In this document: positions 53,247-60,964 of the stretch, piece after piece | Numbering within the stretch: the first letter of the stretch is position 1 | How the letters are laid out: each line of letters opens with the position of its first letter | Source of the DNA: Mycoplasmatota bacterium | GTDB taxonomy: Bacteria; Bacillota_I; Bacilli_A; Izemoplasmatales; Hujiaoplasmataceae | Assembly: GCA_016342455.1 (NCBI GenBank) | Contig: JAEIOE010000003.1 | Coordinates: forward strand, 6,073 to 70,072 | Length of the DNA stretch: 64,000 nt | Reading direction: 5' to 3' | Notes under the pieces: generated by a model | The model's input: the letters and a program-made list of their open reading frames with translations, nothing else | Told to the model about the DNA's origin: nothing | Databases searched by the model: none | Made by a program: the position numbers and the translations under genes

Positions 53247-53609
53247 CTATTCCTGTTTTATTTTTTTTGCGGATTCGAGAGCTTCTTTAAATAATAATTT
53301 TACTTGTTTTTGATCTAGAAAAGGCATAATTGTTTCGATTTGTAATTTTTCAATACTACCAGATTGGATTCTTTCAACTAAATTTGAAAGTTCTTCTGAA
53401 CTTAAAAATGGTAGGAATCCAGATGAACATACTTCAATTTTTCCCTCTAAAGACGCTTCAAATAATCTAGTTACATCTTCTTTTTCTAGAAACGGAACAA
53501 TTTGCATAATTGATATTTTCTCATCCGATATCTCATTATTTATAATTGAATCAACTAATTCCTTTATTTCTTCATTTTCTAAAAATGGTAACATTCTACT
53601 TAGTTTCAT
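53247..53609 (-). CDS. Small helical-repeat protein (four PFL repeats)
   Basis: MLPFLENEE, IVPFLEKED, FLPFLSSEE, IMPFLDQKQ; ATGA overlap with the XRE gene. Confidence 0.8.
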   Translation of the reverse strand: MKLSRMLPFLENEEIKELVDSIINNEISDEKISIMQIVPFLEKEDVTRLFEASLEGKIEVCSSGFLPFLSSEELSNLVERIQSGSIEKLQIETIMPFLDQKQVKLLFKEALESAKKIKQE

Positions 53610-54160
53610 TTTTTAATCTCCTTTATTTTTTTAATTTCACTCATTGTCATCATTTGATTCAAAACACATAAATCTAATTGTATGTGCCCTTCTTTATACT
53701 TATGAATAATCATATGTCTTTCTTCTAGTGACAATCTTGGCCATAGTTCACCACTAATTGATTGATTCTGATCGAATAGTAAAAAGATAGCATAAAGCCT
53801 TTCTTCTTTTGATAACAGATGAATGATATCTTGTAAATATATATCTTTGATTTTATTTAGTATTACCTCATGAATAATATATTGCCTGTTGTGTTCTTGA
53901 AATAATCTATCAAGATCAAAGTCATTTGCTATTGCGTCAAGACATAATAGCTCTTCTAAACTGACTGAATACAGTTTCATTAGAAAGCACATATTATCAA
54001 TTGATGGAAGAGAGATTCCGCGTTCCCATTTAGATACAGCTTGATGGGAGACAAAAAGCATTTCTGCTATATCATCTTGAGTATGTTCTTTCTTTTGCCT
54101 AAGTTCAGCTAGTTTTTTACCAATACGTAATAAATCAAGCAAACTAACACCTACTTTCAA
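53606..54160 (-). CDS. XRE-family HTH transcriptional regulator
   Basis: LRQKKEHTQDDIAEMLFVSHQAVSKWERG..LP. Confidence 0.92.
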   Translation of the reverse strand: MKVGVSLLDLLRIGKKLAELRQKKEHTQDDIAEMLFVSHQAVSKWERGISLPSIDNMCFLMKLYSVSLEELLCLDAIANDFDLDRLFQEHNRQYIIHEVILNKIKDIYLQDIIHLLSKEERLYAIFLLFDQNQSISGELWPRLSLEERHMIIHKYKEGHIQLDLCVLNQMMTMSEIKKIKEIKK

Positions 54161-54218: not shown

Positions 54219-54315
54219 ACCTATGAATATTGACAATATAAACAAAACAAAATAAATCTCATTTTTTTAGTGGTTTTGCTAATAAAATTTACTAAATGCA
54301 TATCACAAAAAAAAT

Positions 54316-54396
54316 GCAACCAATTAAGGTTACATTTAGTCCTTTAATGGCGACCCGGAAGGGATTCGAACCCCCGACCGACGGCTTAGGAAGCCG
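54316..54396 (-). repeat. Island-distal att site: 81-bp direct repeat containing the 3' 49 nt of tRNA-Arg(CCT) plus terminator
   Basis: Identical to 60856-60936. Confidence 0.97.
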
Positions 54397-54698: not shown

Positions 54699-54727
54699 AA
54701 AAGGAAGCAGTTTTGAACTGCTTCTTT
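54699..54727 (-). terminator. Terminator after the methyltransferase
   Basis: GAAGCAGTT/AACTGCTTC plus T-run on the - strand. Confidence 0.8.
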
Positions 54728-54771: not shown

Positions 54772-56001
54772 TTAATATACTTTTAATCTGTCTTTAGTTT
54801 TTTTATATACAATTACATATTCATTATTCATTGATGATATTTCAGTATTATCAACTTTTATTACTCTAGGTGTTCTTTTCCTTTGTATTTCTCTACTATA
54901 TTCGTTTATGAATTCTAGACCCTTAATGTTAAAAACATCTTTAGTGATTCTAGTTAAGTCAATCAATATTTTATCAACAGTTCTATTACCGAGAGTTAAA
55001 ATCAGATGACCACTAGTTATCCTTATTGCTTGATAAAGAAAGTCAAAGTAATCTCTCATAAACGATTTCACTTTCTTTACCTTGTCTTCGTTGATATTAG
55101 AAATATAGGGTTCAACAATTTTATATTCCTCTTCAGTTAAAGCTTTATTTCTTAAATGTCCACCTAGACTTTTCGAATCTATTATTGAATAATTTTCTAG
55201 TTCCCATCCTTCTAAATCTAAATCGTCTGCATTAATCCAGAATAATACTAATGATGAAAACTGTCCATATGGAACTGTGGTGTGATTATCCCCATAAGGT
55301 GGACTAGTAATAAGAATATCAAAGAAATCATCATTGAAAACATCAAGATATTGGATAGAATCATTTTTTGCAAGTTCTTTGTAATTGTAGTTGTTACAAT
55401 AGAATTTTTTGCCTTCCTGAAGAGATTTAATATAATGTTCCTCTATTTTCTCACTATTAATGTTATCGATTTTATCGGAGGGTTTCATGTGTAATTTATA
55501 TGTTGAAGATCTTGTGTTCGAGAATTTCCTTACTAGATTTGAAAATATAACCCAAAAGAACTTTCTATCTAAATTGTCTTTTTCAAGATTAATAGCTGCT
55601 CTTATTTTTGATAACGTCTTTATAACATCTTGCCTATACCATTTTTCTATATTTTCGAAATGATGAATCTCAAAGTTCATATCACTATTTAATCGCTTAA
55701 TTAATTGATTAATACTATTATTAATGTTTTTAGATGTCCCATCTAATTTTGTTTGGGTTATCAACTTTGCAAAGGGATTAATGTCACATCCATAAATTTG
55801 AACTTTTCTTGATATATTAGCGACTTCATAAAGGGATGTTCCAGAACCATAAAATGGATCTATTATTTTTGTTCCCATTTGGGTGTCAACATACTGAAGC
55901 AAAATATCCTTTTGTGCCGGTGCAATCATTGTAGCTGGATATAGTACAGTCCCATGAATGTCACTTTTTTTGTTATATTCTTGATAAGAAATATCCATCA
56001 T
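54772..56001 (-). CDS. DNA methyltransferase, N4-cytosine alpha-class, M.MvaI-like
   Basis: YPATMI, motif I DPFYGSGT, GCDINP, SNTR, motif IV TSPPYGD..TVPYGQFS, GNRTV. Confidence 0.88.
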   Translation of the reverse strand: MMDISYQEYNKKSDIHGTVLYPATMIAPAQKDILLQYVDTQMGTKIIDPFYGSGTSLYEVANISRKVQIYGCDINPFAKLITQTKLDGTSKNINNSINQLIKRLNSDMNFEIHHFENIEKWYRQDVIKTLSKIRAAINLEKDNLDRKFFWVIFSNLVRKFSNTRSSTYKLHMKPSDKIDNINSEKIEEHYIKSLQEGKKFYCNNYNYKELAKNDSIQYLDVFNDDFFDILITSPPYGDNHTTVPYGQFSSLVLFWINADDLDLEGWELENYSIIDSKSLGGHLRNKALTEEEYKIVEPYISNINEDKVKKVKSFMRDYFDFLYQAIRITSGHLILTLGNRTVDKILIDLTRITKDVFNIKGLEFINEYSREIQRKRTPRVIKVDNTEISSMNNEYVIVYKKTKDRLKVY

Positions 56002-56090
56002 TTATTTTTCCTTTCAAAGAGGGTTAATATATATATTACAATATTCTGGCATAAATTAACAGGATAATCTGTTGATTGTATAAATATTAT

Positions 56091-58262
56091 TTAATTAGAC
56101 AGTTTTTCATTAACAAAATCATTAATTAATATTTCATTTACGATTACTACAAAAAAAGCTATATGTTTTCCTAAGTCTTCAATATCGCTTTCACTTATGT
56201 GCATAGTTGAGCTATGAGTCGCTAAATTAGATTTTCTAACAGCATCACCAAATGCAGCTGTTGGTTTTGTCCCACTACTAATAAGTAGTTTATTTTTTAA
56301 AGCTTCAATAGATATACTTGTATTATTGGCTATGCTTTCCCTTATATCTTTATCGTTGATAAGGTTTATAACTTTATTCACTGCAACCTCTAAGTTTTTT
56401 GAGTATTTATCTTCATTAGGGAGTATTGAATTTCTAATTAATACTTGTATTGATAAGTCAAAAATAGTTCTTAAAGAGCAAGCTAGAACTTCTCTTTTAT
56501 CATCTTTTTTAATTGAATCATTTTGATATAACATATTAATTTGATTAATGAGTTTTGATACAAAATAATCATATGTTATTTTATAATCCGGTCTAGTGTA
56601 CAATGGTAATAAGTAGTTTTCACCTGTTTCAGCTACCAAGGGTTCTTCGGATTTATCAAATCTTATTTTTAGTGGTTCATTATGTGGACCGGTAATAGGA
56701 TCGTTATACGAAAATACAATTTCTACTTCTTGTTTACTGTCTATACCGCGTAAAATTTTATTGCTTGAGTTTACTCCATTTATTAAAACTTTTATTTCAT
56801 CTTTAATATTTTCAAGTTTACTATTCCTTGCATCTTCAACATAAGTCATTAAATCAATTTGTTGACTAGGTATAGCCATTATATCAAAACTCTTTATTAG
56901 TTTTATTCTAACGGGAAAAGTTTCATCCTTTTTCAATTTAGGAAGAGTATACGTTCCTAAATTATGTTTCATGAATTTGAAAGTGATTTTTTTGTTGTTA
57001 ATTGAGGTACTTATTAAACTTGAATGCTTAAACGAGGGATTTATACAAAATGATTTTATTGCAGTAATGTTGTCTTCATATGAATCACCTGGTAAAGATG
57101 GCATACCTTCAGGATAATTCTTTATGATTTTGTCTTTTTTAACTAATCCAAATTTATTCTCAGAACCCTTTGTCTGTATTTCAATATTAATTCTCTGTAA
57201 GAAATGAATTAATTCGTTTGAAAAAGAGTTATCTACTAATTTTGTTCTTTCAGCATTAAATTCTAATTCAGAATTTGTACTATATATATTAATGTATCCT
57301 GCAATTTGAGGTAAAACAATAGCACTCCTTATAGATCTTGTAATGCTTGGATTAAAAAGTTCATGAGATTGAAAAAGATTGTTATTAATATATACTAGTG
57401 GAGCAATAAACCTATCGTTTGATGTTCTAAAGATAAATAAAGGATCTGCCTCTTCTACGGAGGTACCTTTTAAGTCATAAATTGTTAAGCACAAGTCTAT
57501 TTCAAACTTATTTGATTCTTTTATAAATTCCGATTCGAATAACTCAATACTATTTTGACTGAATATAATTTTTCCAATCTTTGAATCATATTTTACAGTG
57601 TAAATTATTTTGTCTGAGAATTCTTCGTTATATGTATTCACTTCATTAGTGCTGGATATAATTTCATTGTTTATATTTAGATTGATAGACATACTTTTGT
57701 CTGAAAACGAATTTAGGATTTTTTCAGAATTTTCTTGATTTTCAAAAGTCCTTAAAAATTCTTTTTCAGTTTTTTCTGTCATAGCAATTCTTATAAATGT
57801 GTAATTTTTAACATTATTAACATTTTCTTCTTCAATTTTAAATCGTTTGTCAGATGCATTATCTTGTAGTTCTATTTCACGTATATTCATTGAAAAGAGT
57901 CTTTTAACATTATTATTAACACTTTCCCAATAAGCTTCTTCTCCAAACTTAAATACTGATAAAAAACCTAAGCCTTTTGACCCTTGAGTAATTCTACCAC
58001 ATTTGTTTTTATGTCCATATTTTTTTGAGCTCTTGGATACAGAAAGAAGAGTAGTGATACCTTTTTTATCCATGCCTTCTCCATCATCTCTAATTATTAA
58101 CGAGTTACTTTCGCTAGAATAGATTATTTCAACCTTTTTTGCACAAGCATCATAGGCATTTTTTAGTAACTCATTTAAGGCAATATACATGTTTGGTAAT
58201 TTTTCAGATACCTCTTTTAATATTTGACCAGAAATCTTTAATTGTTCTTCATAATAACTCAT
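56091..58262 (-). CDS. MORC-type GHKL ATPase with C-terminal HEPN-like helical domain
   Basis: ELLKNAYDA, RDDGEGM, GSKGLGF; S5-like PQIAGYINI/FNAERTKL; C-terminal SLRTIFDLS and RKSNLATH. Confidence 0.8.
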   Translation of the reverse strand: MSYYEEQLKISGQILKEVSEKLPNMYIALNELLKNAYDACAKKVEIIYSSESNSLIIRDDGEGMDKKGITTLLSVSKSSKKYGHKNKCGRITQGSKGLGFLSVFKFGEEAYWESVNNNVKRLFSMNIREIELQDNASDKRFKIEEENVNNVKNYTFIRIAMTEKTEKEFLRTFENQENSEKILNSFSDKSMSINLNINNEIISSTNEVNTYNEEFSDKIIYTVKYDSKIGKIIFSQNSIELFESEFIKESNKFEIDLCLTIYDLKGTSVEEADPLFIFRTSNDRFIAPLVYINNNLFQSHELFNPSITRSIRSAIVLPQIAGYINIYSTNSELEFNAERTKLVDNSFSNELIHFLQRINIEIQTKGSENKFGLVKKDKIIKNYPEGMPSLPGDSYEDNITAIKSFCINPSFKHSSLISTSINNKKITFKFMKHNLGTYTLPKLKKDETFPVRIKLIKSFDIMAIPSQQIDLMTYVEDARNSKLENIKDEIKVLINGVNSSNKILRGIDSKQEVEIVFSYNDPITGPHNEPLKIRFDKSEEPLVAETGENYLLPLYTRPDYKITYDYFVSKLINQINMLYQNDSIKKDDKREVLACSLRTIFDLSIQVLIRNSILPNEDKYSKNLEVAVNKVINLINDKDIRESIANNTSISIEALKNKLLISSGTKPTAAFGDAVRKSNLATHSSTMHISESDIEDLGKHIAFFVVIVNEILINDFVNEKLSN

Positions 58263-58637: not shown

Positions 58638-59249
58638 TTAGTCAAAAATAGTTCTACCTTTTATAGTTAAGAAAAGTATATTAAGTTCAATACGTTGTTC
58701 ATTGCAATTCTCAATTTTTTTATTAAAAAGTTCTAGATTTTCTATATATTCGTTGTCTTCTTTTGATTTAATTTTATCTGATCCGTATAACGAGTATAGT
58801 AATAAAGAGGATGCAATAACTTTCATATGTTCAGTAGCATATTTGATAAGTTTTGAATAATATTGTGGGGGAAAAATGGATTGAGACAACTCAACTACTT
58901 TAACAAACTCATTATGAAAGTCAAAAGCTTCTTTAAGAGTTTTGTCTAATTGTTTAATTATACCATCTTCTCTTTTTATGAGCTTTTCAAAATTATAATG
59001 ATGAATATTAGATAGTTTCTCATTATATTCTGTTTGAGTTTGTGCTGTCTTAATAATATTTTGATATGCTTCGTATTGCTTTTCGTGATTATATTTTACT
59101 ATTTCAGATTTTAACTTAATTTCTTCTATATCTTTATTATTTTTTGACGTGTTTTTTTGTAGTAAAAAAAAGCTAATTACTGTCCAAACTAATACTAAAG
59201 TTGTTAGTAAATATGATACTCCGTAGTCTGTGAACCAATTTAGAAACAT
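58638..59249 (-). CDS. Hypothetical protein, single N-terminal TM plus helical domain
   Basis: 203 aa, AGGAG RBS, TM at residues about 12-31. Confidence 0.8.
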   Translation of the reverse strand: MFLNWFTDYGVSYLLTTLVLVWTVISFFLLQKNTSKNNKDIEEIKLKSEIVKYNHEKQYEAYQNIIKTAQTQTEYNEKLSNIHHYNFEKLIKREDGIIKQLDKTLKEAFDFHNEFVKVVELSQSIFPPQYYSKLIKYATEHMKVIASSLLLYSLYGSDKIKSKEDNEYIENLELFNKKIENCNEQRIELNILFLTIKGRTIFD

Positions 59250-59307
59250 ATTACTCTCCTTTTATTTATTCTTCATATTTTTAATAAATATCTATGCAGC
59301 CCCTAAG

Positions 59308-60141
59308 TTATATCTGATTACTAGCTAGATAATTTATGAAAGCTGAACATGATACAAGCATGTACTGGGCTTCCGCTAAAGTGTGAATAGAATCCAGACC
59401 ATAACTATGTCTAATTCCATCTTGATCACTAGTATATCCATATAAAGAAGTGAAAGCATTCTTAAGAGCTGGATGAATAGTGATCTTATTTTCTAATAGC
59501 GATAAAGCCTTTCCTAGTGTAACTTTCGATTCAGCAATTTCATTACATGCTGATTCTACTGCTAAAATACAATCTTTCATCCCATTTGCAAAATCGGGTT
59601 TATCTCTATTGAAGATTAAGTTAATAGCATTAGATATAAACACGTGTGCTTTGTTAAAAGGTGATTGTAATGCTTTGTTAACTTCCTCTAGTTCAATTTT
59701 AGAGACGATATTAGTGAATTTTCCATTTATCATTCTATAACCTACAAACTCATGTTCAAAAATACCATTAATTGAAGAAACTAGATTAATGTCATGGAAA
59801 TCCGAATAATAGTAATTATCTGAAATAATATAACCAATCAATGGTTCGAAATAAGAAAGAATTTCTGAGTAATTCCATGATTCACTAATACAACGATTAA
59901 CGTTCATTCTTACAAAATCTCTACCTTTATATTGATTAATTGGTAGAACAAATATTTCTGTATAAATGTATTCAGCAATTTCATAATTTGAGTATACTGA
60001 TTTAGCAAATATTATTTCATTAAAATTAATCAATCTAGATCTGACTCTTTCATTAAAACTTTCTAATTGAACAGTATCATCAATTTTATCTATATTCTCT
60101 CTATCTGAAAATGTTCCTCTTTTTCTTGGTACATAATCCAT
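59308..60141 (-). CDS. AbiJ N-terminal domain 4-like protein with HEPN-type C-terminus
   Basis: FSDRE..QLESFNERVRSRL N-terminus; HPALKNAFTSLYGYTSDQDGIRH C-terminus. Confidence 0.75.
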   Translation of the reverse strand: MDYVPRKRGTFSDRENIDKIDDTVQLESFNERVRSRLINFNEIIFAKSVYSNYEIAEYIYTEIFVLPINQYKGRDFVRMNVNRCISESWNYSEILSYFEPLIGYIISDNYYYSDFHDINLVSSINGIFEHEFVGYRMINGKFTNIVSKIELEEVNKALQSPFNKAHVFISNAINLIFNRDKPDFANGMKDCILAVESACNEIAESKVTLGKALSLLENKITIHPALKNAFTSLYGYTSDQDGIRHSYGLDSIHTLAEAQYMLVSCSAFINYLASNQI

Positions 60142-60820: not shown

Positions 60821-60855
60821 TAGATTAAAATAAATGAGATTTTAGTAAAAAAAAA

Positions 60856-60936
60856 GCAACCAATTAAGGTTACATTTAGTCCTTTAATGGCGACCCGGAA
60901 GGGATTCGAACCCCCGACCGACGGCTTAGGAAGCCG
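60856..60936 (-). repeat. tRNA-proximal att site (81-bp direct repeat)
   Basis: Identical to 54316-54396. Confidence 0.97.
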
Positions 60937-60964
60937 TTGCTCTATCCTGCTGAGCTACCGGGTC
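60888..60964 (-). tRNA. tRNA-Arg(CCT)
   Basis: 77 nt cloverleaf: GACCCGG/CCGGGTC acceptor stem, loop TTCCTAA, TTCGAAT, encoded CCA. Confidence 0.97.

What the first reader, a model, noticed from the sequence alone, without database searches (positions are those of the whole stretch)
54772..58262. MvaI-like m4C methyltransferase paired with a MORC ATPase-HEPN-like fusion instead of a restriction endonuclease
Seen: two adjacent co-oriented genes 89 bp apart, closed by a terminator. The MTase has the alpha-order motifs DPFYGSGT and TSPPY (55294-55305) and closely follows M.MvaI as I recall it (YPA.MI, SNTR, TSPPYGD..TV.YGQFS, NRTV). Its partner has GHKL N/G1/G2 boxes, an S5-like domain, a beta-rich spacer and a helical tail with SLRTIFDLS and R-x6-H (RKSNLATH, 56214-56237). 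I see no PD-(D/E)xK, HNH or GIY-YIG endonuclease gene in the island. Known: prokaryotic MORC ATPases associate with R-M loci, and HEPN domains use Rx4-6H for RNA cleavage in Abi systems. Inference: a two-gene methylation-gated defence system in which the ATPase clamp senses unmethylated or foreign DNA, or loss of methylation, and triggers an RNase (abortive infection) rather than cutting DNA. I know of no characterised system with this exact architecture.
Basis: partly seen in the sequence, partly recalled or inferred. Interest (0 to 1): 0.82.

Follow-up and report, generated by a model that had tools for sequence, protein, structure and literature searches.

The report
Methylase paired with MORC-like ATPase-HEPN effector
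A mobile two-gene cassette pairs a DNA cytosine-N4-type methylase with a MORC-like ATPase that ends in a HEPN-like (RNase-type) domain instead of any known DNA-cutting domain. It looks like an untested restriction-modification-style immune system, of a design that was predicted on paper in 2008-2013.

Summary
Two co-oriented minus-strand genes lie 89 bp apart and are closed by a terminator: a 723-aa GHKL ATPase (56091-58262) and a 409-aa SPPY amino-methyltransferase (54772-56001).

- **Pairing.** The pair is an obligate unit. 58 of 61 usable loci of the ATPase family, from about seven phyla, carry the cognate methylase, 53 of them directly adjacent. The two proteins co-diverge (Mantel r 0.82). 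No third gene is conserved.
- **ATPase architecture.** The order is MORC-like GHKL plus transducer, a variable linker, an Ig-like sandwich, and a helical tail. The best structural matches of the tail are overwhelmingly HEPN domains.
- **Tail dimer.** The tail is predicted to homodimerise, with its two invariant residues (R598, H683) in the interface.
The family signature is R598-x3-[E/D] in helix 2 and [H/N]-x3-H683 at the end of helix 3.
- **No DNase.** No DNase fold or metal-binding site is present.
- **Prior knowledge.** GHKL-HEPN fusions beside methylases were noted computationally in 2008 and 2013. This scan found m5C-linked versions on other genomes. This family has a different methylase class and a tail unknown to Pfam or PADLOC.

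Verdict: a new variant of a known, uncharacterised kind. RNA versus DNA targeting is unresolved.

The parts
56091..58262 (-). GHKL ATPase-HEPN-like effector gene (723 aa, P0001)
   Evidence: ORF. Pfam HATPase_c_3 E 9e-16. 188 homologues, most full length. AlphaFold model with mean pLDDT 89.8.
57153..58262 (-). GHKL ATP-binding domain plus transducer (S5-like) domain, residues 1-370
   Evidence: VIA-align: MORC3 Z 22.5, SMCHD1 20.8, MORC2 20.8, GRP94 20.5, MutL 18.7, all over residues ~9-369. Foldseek: Hsp90, MutL, GyrB and Morc3 at E 1e-13 to 1e-12. E31, N35, D38, D59, G61, G63, G94-G99 and T155 are invariant.
56916..57152 (-). Variable linker with a small alpha/beta module, residues 371-449
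   Evidence: Least conserved part: mean pairwise identity 0.21, length 19-127 aa among 72 homologues.
56628..56915 (-). Ig-like beta-sandwich, residues 450-545
   Evidence: Big_3 domain 2kpn Z 8.8 and many Ig/FnIII domains Z 7-8.6. Atlas Bact_surface_Ig-like/Big_3 TM ~0.5. Constant length of 93-99 aa.
56094..56621 (-). HEPN-like helical tail, residues 548-723, predicted dimerisation and effector domain
   Evidence: Domain model pLDDT 92.5. About 24 of the top 30 VIA matches are HEPN or HEPN-related domains, Z 6-8.6. Atlas PF05168 HEPN TM 0.53 and DUF4145 TM 0.51. Homodimer prediction 0.65 against best control 0.00.
56469..56471 (-). R598 codon, invariant arginine in helix 2 (S-L-R-x-x-F-[E/D]-L)
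   Evidence: 82 of 82 sequences. Position 602 is always E or D. R598 lies in the predicted dimer interface as tail residue 51.
56214..56216 (-). H683 codon, invariant histidine at the end of helix 3 ([H/N]-L-G-A-H)
   Evidence: 82 of 82 sequences. Position 679 is always H or N. H683 lies in the predicted dimer interface as tail residue 136. It occupies the place of the HEPN histidine as described in PMC3710099.
56002..56090 (-). 89-bp intergenic spacer with the methylase ribosome-binding site
   Evidence: Read directly. No significant promoter or terminator.
54772..56001 (-). SPPY-type amino-methyltransferase gene (409 aa, P0002), predicted cytosine-N4
   Evidence: PADLOC MTase_II PDLC03322 E 8e-56 over the full length. 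Motif I at residues 48-55 and motif IV TSPPY at 232-236. All 120 homologues checked have [T/S]SPPY. Sources name relatives cytosine-N4-specific.
54704..54724 (-). Terminator-like hairpin closing the operon
   Evidence: 9-bp stem with 4 GC pairs and a T-run. 5 such sites found in the region against 0.9 expected.
54307..54396 (.). Distal copy of the 90-nt direct repeat (3' part of tRNA-Arg-CCT plus downstream bases) bounding the island
   Evidence: 99% identical to 60847-60936, which overlaps tRNA-Arg(cct) at 60888-60964.

Best explanation
This is a horizontally acquired, self-contained two-gene restriction-modification-like immunity (or addiction) cassette.

The SPPY methyltransferase marks host DNA, most likely as N4-methylcytosine. 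Its partner is a MORC-like GHKL ATPase. It is held as a dimer by its C-terminal HEPN-like domain and can close its N-terminal ATP gate, so it would act as a DNA clamp in the manner of MutL or MORC.

When it meets unmodified DNA, or when methylation lapses, the ATP-driven change switches on the composite R598/E602/H683 site formed at the HEPN-like dimer interface. This site needs no metal and sits on a fold known only for RNases. The output is therefore most likely RNA cleavage (growth arrest or abortive infection) rather than DNA cutting.

Shown here: the obligate pairing, the domain architecture, the HEPN-like fold, the invariant residues and their predicted position in a dimer interface, and the absence of a DNase fold.

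Inferred: DNA sensing, gating by methylation, ATP coupling and the RNA substrate.
For: Pairing and mobility:
- Of the 64 loci of the ATPase family fetched from species-representative genomes (L007-L070), three cannot be judged (L013 and L069 are cut by the contig end, L070 matches only at 1e-6). Of the remaining 61, 58 carry the cognate methylase, 53 within 300 bp and 57 co-oriented. Either gene order occurs, clade by clade.
- Mantel r is 0.815, with 0 of 999 permutations reaching it.
- All 3 methylase-seeded look-ups find the ATPase next door.
- No third gene is conserved outside one genus.
- The island sits between 90-nt tRNA-Arg repeats. The ATPase was not found in 40 relatives, including 12 of the same genus.

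ATPase:
- All ATP-binding motifs are invariant.
- The nearest solved structures are MORC3, SMCHD1 and MORC2.

Tail:
- HEPN proteins dominate the structural matches.
- H683 sits at the end of helix 3. R598 and E/D602 sit in helix 2. There is an insert between helices 2 and 3. This is the HEPN layout given in PMC3710099.
- The homodimer prediction scores 0.65 against 0.00 for the best control. That mark was reached by 20 of 30 solved homodimers and 1 of 23 monomers. The interface contains R598, D602 and H683.

Other:
- The only invariant polar residues outside the ATPase module are R598 and H683, so there is no acidic cluster for a metal-dependent DNase.
- Broken copies: the ATPase is frameshifted beside an intact methylase in 3 loci, and the reverse occurs in 1. 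Loss of the effector first is the expected order if the effector is the toxic partner, as in R-M systems.
Against: - The canonical Rx4-6H arginine is not conserved.
- No HEPN Pfam model matches any of the 72 tails.
- hhalign gives probability 0.1% to Ymh. To DUF4145 it gives only E 0.07, although that alignment puts H683 on the DUF4145 histidine.
- Foldseek finds nothing significant in PDB, AFDB clusters or Swiss-Prot.
- VIA Z of about 8 is within the range that helical bundles reach by chance, according to the tool's own note.
- Invariant residues in an interface may be structural rather than catalytic.
- GHKL-type R proteins of another family (HgiDII, BbrUII) are listed as DNA-cutting SalI isoschizomers.
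- No DNA-sequence reader is evident in the ATPase.
- One locus has an intact ATPase beside a frameshifted methylase (L039). One has no family methylase within reach (L034).
- There is no experimental datum of any kind.
Confidence: 0.45

Rival explanations
1. It is a true, ATP-dependent DNA restriction system. The GHKL protein is the restriction endonuclease, as REBASE lists for HgiDII/BbrUII-type GHKL proteins. It cuts unmethylated DNA through an unconventional site in the tail or elsewhere, and the HEPN-like domain serves dimerisation or DNA binding.
For: - The position and strict pairing with a Type II-like methylase are those of an R gene.
- R.HgiDII is described as GHKL plus an unassigned C-terminus. 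Four further GHKL subfamilies are listed among Type II REases (PMC2441816).
- Pre-methylation with M.BbrUII and M.BbrUIII raises transformation of B. breve more than 1000-fold (PMC5829577).
- Tiamat, another GHL ATPase, is a DNase (bioRxiv 10.64898/2026.09.30.754977).
Against: - No PD-(D/E)xK, HNH, GIY-YIG or PLD fold appears in the model.
- No conserved acidic cluster is present.
- No match to NCBIfam NF050001 was returned at E up to 1.
- A metal-free Arg/His site on a HEPN fold is known for RNA only, because that chemistry uses the 2'-OH (PMC3710099).
Confidence: 0.3
2. It is a non-nucleolytic clamp. The dimeric MORC-like ATPase entraps and compacts or blocks unmethylated incoming DNA (silencing, replication block). 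The tail is only the constitutive dimerisation domain, as in human sacsin, whose HEPN domain lacks the catalytic motif.
For: - The closest solved ATPase modules are MORC3, SMCHD1 and MORC2.
- The tail is predicted to dimerise.
- The canonical HEPN arginine is missing.
- Sacsin pairs Hsp90-like ATPase modules with a non-catalytic HEPN (PMC3710099). NCBIfam's sacsin ATP-binding model matches the N-terminus at E 1e-11, below its cut-off.
Against: Absolute invariance of R598 and H683, an always-acidic 602 and an always H/N 679 across 82 sequences at about 33% identity. That is more than a dimer interface usually needs, and it mimics a HEPN active site.
Confidence: 0.12
3. It is not an immune system. 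It is an epigenetic regulator or repair module, or a selfish addiction cassette with no role against phages.
For: - MutL-like ATPases act in repair.
- The methylase could be a regulator.
- The cassette is mobile and could persist by post-segregational killing alone.
Against: - Patchy distribution across phyla.
- Location in an island next to an AbiJ-type gene, and beside integrases, transposases and other defence genes elsewhere.
- No link to repair genes.
Confidence: 0.08

Closest known systems
paraMORC (GHKL) ATPases fused to Ymh-family HEPN domains in R-M neighbourhoods (R.NmeAIP type; PMC2441816, PMC3710099)
   Same: An N-terminal GHKL plus S5 ATPase, a C-terminal HEPN-type domain, a gene next to a DNA methylase, and no separate nuclease. 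These were proposed to be functional analogues of PrrC/RloC.
   Different: - The tail here is not Ymh: no PF09509 match in 72 tails and hhalign probability 0.1%.
- It lacks the canonical RNxxxH seen in the Ymh sequences fetched here.
- An Ig-like domain is inserted.
- The partner is an SPPY amino-methylase rather than the C5 methylases usually described (PMC2292703).
- Neither version has been tested experimentally in the library searched.
HgiDII / BbrUII GHKL-type Type II restriction enzymes (NCBIfam NF050001, named in earlier scan notes)
   Same: A GHKL protein takes the place of the R gene beside a methylase.
   Different: No NF050001 match at E up to 1. Those enzymes are listed as SalI isoschizomers with a different, unassigned C-terminal module.
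PrrC and RloC anticodon nucleases
   Same: An NTPase fused to a C-terminal HEPN RNase and functionally tied to an R-M system. They act as a suicide or second-line response (PMC3710099).
   Different: Those use ABC/Rad50-type ATPases and are linked to complete Type I systems. Here the ATPase is GHKL and the only partner is a methylase.
Eukaryotic MORC, SMCHD1 and bacterial MutL ATPase modules
   Same: The same GHKL plus transducer fold, Z 18.7-22.5. Dimeric clamp logic.
   Different: No CW, coiled-coil or hinge domains and no MutL C-terminal endonuclease. The MORC-specific sequence motif was not examined.
Tiamat (TmtA) and sacsin
   Same: An Hsp90/sacsin-like ATP-binding N-terminus (NF047352 E 1e-11; TmtA HMM E 2.5e-5). 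Sacsin also ends in a HEPN domain (3o10, Z 8.0). In Tiamat the effector doubles as the dimerisation domain.
   Different: The matches cover only about 60-80 N-terminal residues. There is no DUF3684 and no PD-(D/E)xK nuclease. Near Tiamat, methylases are reported only together with helicases.

Membership tests
HEPN superfamily | [quoted passage not shown] | tested here: met
   - Model helices are 566-580, 586-610, an insert at 611-669, then 670-684 and 691-713.
- About 24 of the top 30 VIA matches are HEPN or HEPN-related, including Roquin, HepT, sacsin HEPN, YutE, AF0298, AbiA, Csm6, RnlA, LsoA and Las1, at Z 6-8.6.
- Atlas gives PF05168 TM 0.53.
- Caveat: these Z values are in the grey zone for helical bundles, and Foldseek is not significant.
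HEPN superfamily | Rx4-6H motif at the end of helix 3 | tested here: not met
   - H683 is invariant at that position, and the -4 residue is always H or N.
- The arginine position (676) is K 36, S 11, R 10, A 9 and others among 82 sequences.
- The invariant arginine is R598 in helix 2.
- PMC3710099 describes HEPN families that relocate the basic residue in a comparable way.
HEPN superfamily | Dimer with the catalytic motifs facing each other at the interface | tested here: inconclusive
   The predicted homodimer passes (0.65 against 0.00). The interface lists tail residues 51, 55 and 136, which are R598, D602 and H683. This is a prediction only.
HEPN superfamily | Metal-independent RNase activity | not testable with these tools
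   Needs biochemistry.
Ymh HEPN family (PF09509), the one reported fused to paraMORCs | Match to the family profile and an RNxxxH motif | tested here: not met
   No PF09509 match in P0001 or in any of the 72 tails. hhalign to 3 Ymh sequences gives probability 0.1%. That Ymh profile is thin.
MORC / paraMORC GHKL ATPases of R-M systems | GHKL domain with all ATP-binding motifs, plus an S5-fold transducer | tested here: met
MORC / paraMORC GHKL ATPases of R-M systems | Family-specific motif that separates MORC proper from paraMORC1-5 (PMC2292703) | not tested
   The paper's alignments were not available as sequences. Assignment to a numbered paraMORC family is left open.
BbrUII/HgiDII GHKL restriction enzymes (NF050001) | Match to the NCBIfam model | tested here: not met
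   The NCBIfam scan at E up to 1 lists sacsin-like, MutL, kinase (ActS/PrrB/RegB, TtrS) and MzaB models only.
Tiamat (TmtA) | Hsp90-like ATPase plus DUF3684 plus PD-(D/E)xK nuclease | tested here: not met
   The PADLOC TmtA models match residues 28-108 only. No such domains appear in Pfam or the fold searches.
Type II restriction-modification system | DNA methyltransferase with catalytic and AdoMet motifs | tested here: met
   PADLOC MTase_II E 8e-56. DPFxGSG and [T/S]SPPY are conserved in 120 homologues.
Type II restriction-modification system | Cognate endonuclease with a recognised nuclease fold that cleaves unmethylated sites | tested here: not met
   No PADLOC REase model and no nuclease fold matches P0001. 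Cleavage itself is not testable here.
N4-cytosine methyltransferases (M.MvaI-like) | SPPY catalytic motif | tested here: met
   TSPPY at residues 232-236. SPPY is described as unique to N4-cytosine methyltransferases in PMC2532716.
N4-cytosine methyltransferases (M.MvaI-like) | Sequence similarity to M.MvaI itself, and CCWGG specificity | not testable with these tools
   No M.MvaI sequence or methylome data could be reached. Sources call relatives cytosine-N4-specific.

The most novel reading that the evidence does not exclude
It is a restriction-modification system whose attack arm reads DNA methylation but cuts RNA. A MORC-like ATP clamp senses unmodified DNA and fires a non-canonical dimeric HEPN RNase, with the arginine supplied from helix 2. 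Self/non-self discrimination on DNA is thereby turned into translational shutdown. This would be the first experimentally tractable example from a family that no defence-system catalogue lists.
Probability: 0.35. Interest if true: 0.8.

Novelty: new variant of a known kind. Interest (0 to 1): 0.55.

Why it matters
- **An untested design.** GHKL/MORC-type ATPases next to methylases have been flagged since 2008, yet no paper in the library searched reports how any HEPN-ended one works. If this one cuts RNA on sensing unmethylated DNA, it would join restriction-modification logic to abortive infection in only two genes.
- **A bacterial model for MORC.** It would offer a minimal bacterial model for how MORC-like clamps read DNA methylation.
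- **Annotation.** PADLOC matches the methylase only as a Type II methyltransferase and has no model that covers the ATPase beyond its ATP-binding N-terminus. The methylase would therefore presumably be annotated as an orphan.
- **Reach.** The family has 256 clusters at 50% identity. It occurs in Bacillota, Mollicutes-like lineages, Spirochaetes, Bacteroidota, Verrucomicrobia, Thermotogae relatives and Proteobacteria. It includes bee-gut symbionts, oral streptococci and a frameshifted copy in Yersinia pestis.
- **HEPN motif.** The tail also widens the known range of HEPN active-site arrangements.

Tried and rejected
- **Foldseek on the tail.** Against PDB, AFDB clusters and Swiss-Prot nothing was significant. 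Only the exhaustive VIA search and the Atlas structure search showed the HEPN likeness.
- **Sequence searches on the tail.** Pfam on all 72 tails gave no HEPN family. A profile search of PDB sequences gave nothing.
- **hhalign.** Ymh gave no signal. DUF4145 gave a weak, non-significant alignment. The Ymh-versus-DUF4145 control was also weak (E 0.006), so sequence profiles cannot settle HEPN membership.
- **The 203-aa upstream gene as a hidden restriction enzyme: rejected.** It has an N-terminal membrane helix and no homologue in the 70 related loci held at that point. A hairpin separates it from the pair.
- **A conserved third gene: rejected.** Only syntenic streptococcal neighbours recur.
- **Plasmids and phages.** No full-length relative was found.
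- **Public sequencing runs.** None was listed, so there is no expression or read-level evidence.
- **The tail as a shuffled effector module on other proteins: not seen.** Almost all of the 150 best of 256 representatives carry it at the C-terminus of 600-830-aa proteins. Most of the rest look like fragments, and a few of 190-242 aa might be free-standing versions.
- **An RNA methylase protecting RNA from the RNase.** Considered because of a weak UPF0020 match in Pfam. Judged unlikely given the full-length match to Type II DNA methylase models.
- **Link to R.LweSORF291P.** A link to the REBASE subfamily R.LweSORF291P (PMC2441816) could not be checked.


Full report
**Observation**

Both are on the minus strand.
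- The 723-aa ATPase (56091-58262, P0001) comes first. An 89-bp spacer with a ribosome-binding site follows, then the 409-aa methyltransferase (54772-56001, P0002).
- A terminator-like hairpin at 54724-54704 closes the unit. The region has 5 such sites against 0.9 expected.
- Another hairpin lies between the upstream 203-aa gene and the ATPase.

**Setting**

- The pair lies in a 6.5-kb insert bounded by a 90-nt direct repeat (54307-54396 and 60847-60936, 99% identical). The repeat carries the 3' part of tRNA-Arg(CCT).
- The insert also holds an AbiJ_NTD4 protein and a membrane-anchored 203-aa protein. It holds no integrase.
- The ATPase occurs once in this 2.43-Mb genome. It was not found in 40 relatives, 12 of them of the same genus; several of those genomes are incomplete. 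The cassette was therefore acquired horizontally.

**The methylase**

- Pfam sees only fragments. PADLOC's Type II methyltransferase model PDLC03322 matches it end to end at E 8e-56.
- Motif I (DPFYGSG, residue 48) precedes motif IV (TSPPY, residue 232), with about 175 residues between them.
- All 120 homologues examined have [T/S]SPPY. Some sources name relatives cytosine-N4-specific.
- PMC2532716 describes SPPY as unique to N4-cytosine methyltransferases and M.MvaI as a known one.
- An m4C product is therefore a fair prediction. The recalled likeness to M.MvaI and any CCWGG specificity could not be tested.

**Architecture of the ATPase**

The full-length model, built from 72 homologues, has mean pLDDT 89.8.
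- **Residues 1-370: GHKL domain plus transducer.** The exhaustive structural search puts MORC3 (Z 22.5), SMCHD1 (20.8), MORC2 (20.8), GRP94 (20.5) and MutL (18.7) on top. Foldseek agrees. The catalytic glutamate, the Mg-binding asparagine, DxGxG and the ATP-lid glycines are invariant. "MORC-like" is thus a fair structural description. Membership of MORC proper or of a numbered paraMORC family was not tested.
- **Residues 371-449: variable linker.** Mean identity is 0.21 and length ranges from 19 to 127 aa.
- **Residues 450-545: Ig-like sandwich of constant length**.
- **Residues 548-723: the helical tail.**

**The tail**

*Fold.* Modelled alone, the tail has pLDDT 92.5.
- Foldseek finds nothing significant.
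- In the search of all 48,161 PDB representatives, about 24 of the top 30 rows are HEPN or HEPN-related domains. These include Roquin, HepT toxins, sacsin HEPN, YutE, AF0298, AbiA, Csm6, RnlA, LsoA and Las1, at Z 6-8.6.
- The ESM Atlas structure search independently returns PF05168 HEPN (TM 0.53) and DUF4145 (TM 0.51).
- The Z values alone are in the grey zone for helical bundles. The concentration of one small superfamily among the best rows is what carries the argument.

*Layout.* The layout fits the description of the fold in PMC3710099.
- There are two alpha-hairpins with an insert between helices 2 and 3.
- An invariant histidine (H683) sits at the end of helix 3.
- Conserved charged residues (R598, and E or D at 602) sit in helix 2.

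- Among 82 sequences, including the divergent streptococcal clade, R676 is K, S, R, A, N or E.
- R598 and H683 are 82 of 82. Position 602 is always acidic. Position 679 is always H or N.
- The family signature is therefore R-x3-[E/D] in helix 2 plus [H/N]-x3-H at the end of helix 3. This is a non-canonical arrangement, similar to HEPN families in which the basic residue has moved.

*Sequence-level membership.* It is not demonstrable.
- No Pfam HEPN model matches any tail.
- hhalign to Ymh gives nothing.
- hhalign to DUF4145 gives only E 0.07, though it aligns H683 with the DUF4145 histidine.

*Dimerisation.* A homodimer prediction of the tail passes its controls.
- The score is 0.65 against a best control of 0.00. 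That mark was reached by 20 of 30 solved homodimers and 1 of 23 monomers.
- The interface residues include tail positions 51, 55 and 136, which are R598, D602 and H683.
- This is what a HEPN composite site looks like. It would also give the protein the constitutive C-terminal dimer that GHL clamps need. It remains a prediction.

**Co-occurrence**

- Neighbourhood look-ups from the ATPase side and from the methylase side always found the partner.
- 64 loci were fetched from species-representative genomes (L007-L070). Three cannot be judged: L013 and L069 are cut by the contig end, and L070 is a 1e-6 match.
- Of the remaining 61, 58 hold both genes. 53 have them within 300 bp and 57 have them co-oriented. 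The order is ATPase-methylase in 32 co-oriented loci and methylase-ATPase in 25, consistent within clades.
- Pairwise distances of the two proteins correlate (Mantel r 0.815, 0 of 999 permutations).
- No third gene recurs outside syntenic streptococci.
- The tail domain is found in only 256 representatives of 1.84 billion proteins. Nearly always it sits at the end of 600-830-aa proteins. It is therefore tied to this architecture rather than shuffled.
- Frameshifted ATPases beside intact methylases occur in 3 loci (Yersinia pestis NCTC5923, an Akkermansia MAG, Streptococcus oralis DD05). The reverse occurs in 1 (Oxalobacter). Losing the effector first is the expected order if the effector is the toxic partner, as in R-M systems, but the numbers are small.

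**Mechanism**

Outside the ATPase module the only invariant polar residues are R598 and H683. No acidic cluster exists for a metal-dependent DNase, and no PD-(D/E)xK, HNH, GIY-YIG or PLD fold appears.
- A metal-free Arg/His/acid site on a HEPN scaffold is known for RNA cleavage through the 2'-OH (PMC3710099). I therefore rank the methylation-gated RNase reading first, at 0.45.
- True DNA restriction comes second, at 0.30. GHKL proteins of another family stand in REBASE as SalI isoschizomers (PMC2441816), and the canonical HEPN arginine is missing here.
- A nuclease-free clamp (0.12) and a non-immune role (0.08) remain possible.
- How the ATPase would read a DNA sequence is open. It has no evident specificity domain, so it may borrow the methylase or sense modification in another way.

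**Comparison with what is known**

- Iyer et al. 2008 (PMC2292703) placed MORC and paraMORC ATPases in R-M operons, mostly with helicases, nucleases and C5 methylases.
- Orlowski and Bujnicki 2008 listed five GHKL subfamilies among Type II R proteins, one with a Ymh C-terminus.
- Anantharaman et al. 2013 recognised Ymh as HEPN, noted its fusion to paraMORCs in R-M neighbourhoods, and proposed a PrrC/RloC-like role.
- Earlier notes of this scan report m5C-methylase plus GHKL-HEPN pairs in other genomes, related to the BbrUII/HgiDII family.
- The present family differs in several ways:
  - no NF050001 match;
  - no Ymh match;
  - an inserted Ig-like domain;
  - a relocated arginine;
  - an SPPY amino-methylase partner.
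- PADLOC knows the methylase only as a Type II MTase. It has no model for the ATPase beyond weak N-terminal matches to TmtA and MzaB.
- I found no experimental study of any such pair in the library searched.

**Verdict**

This is a new variant of a computationally predicted but uncharacterised kind. It is of moderate to good interest because it is compact, widespread and directly testable.

Noticed in passing
window 54307-54396 and 60847-60936: A 90-nt direct repeat (99% identical) carries the 3' part of tRNA-Arg(CCT) plus 41 downstream bases. It brackets a 6.5-kb island that has no integrase.
   Followed up: partly
window 58638-60141 (-): The island also carries an AbiJ_NTD4 protein (277 aa, Pfam E 4e-12). 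Next to it is a 203-aa protein with one N-terminal membrane helix, no Pfam match and no homologue in the 70 related loci held at that point.
   Followed up: partly
L030:1310-5509 (Colwellia maritima); similar spacing in L029 and L031: Here 4.6 kb separate the methylase from the ATPase. The gap holds a HATPase_c_3 fragment, a 719-aa protein with a C-terminal histidine-kinase-type HATPase_c, and two unknown genes (235 and 326 aa). It looks like a kinase-type GHKL cassette lodged inside the pair.
   Followed up: partly
L062 (Yersinia pestis NCTC5923), L066 (Akkermansia MAG), L036 (Streptococcus oralis DD05): The ATPase gene is split by a frameshift while the adjacent methylase is intact. In L039 (Oxalobacter paraformigenes) the methylase is the split one and the ATPase is intact.
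   Followed up: partly
L034:3967-8082 (Colwellia MAG): An intact ATPase lies directly after a tyrosine integrase. No family methylase lies within the 2.6 kb of contig that follow.
   Followed up: no
L018, L020, L021, L068 (Gilliamella sp. wkB308); L050, L051 (Streptococcus symci C17): The same genome carries the pair on four (Gilliamella) or two (Streptococcus) different contigs with identical match statistics. This suggests a repeated mobile element or an assembly duplicate.
   Followed up: no
window 53606-54160 (-): An HTH_3 (XRE-type) regulator gene lies just outside the distal island repeat. It is not part of the island.
   Followed up: no
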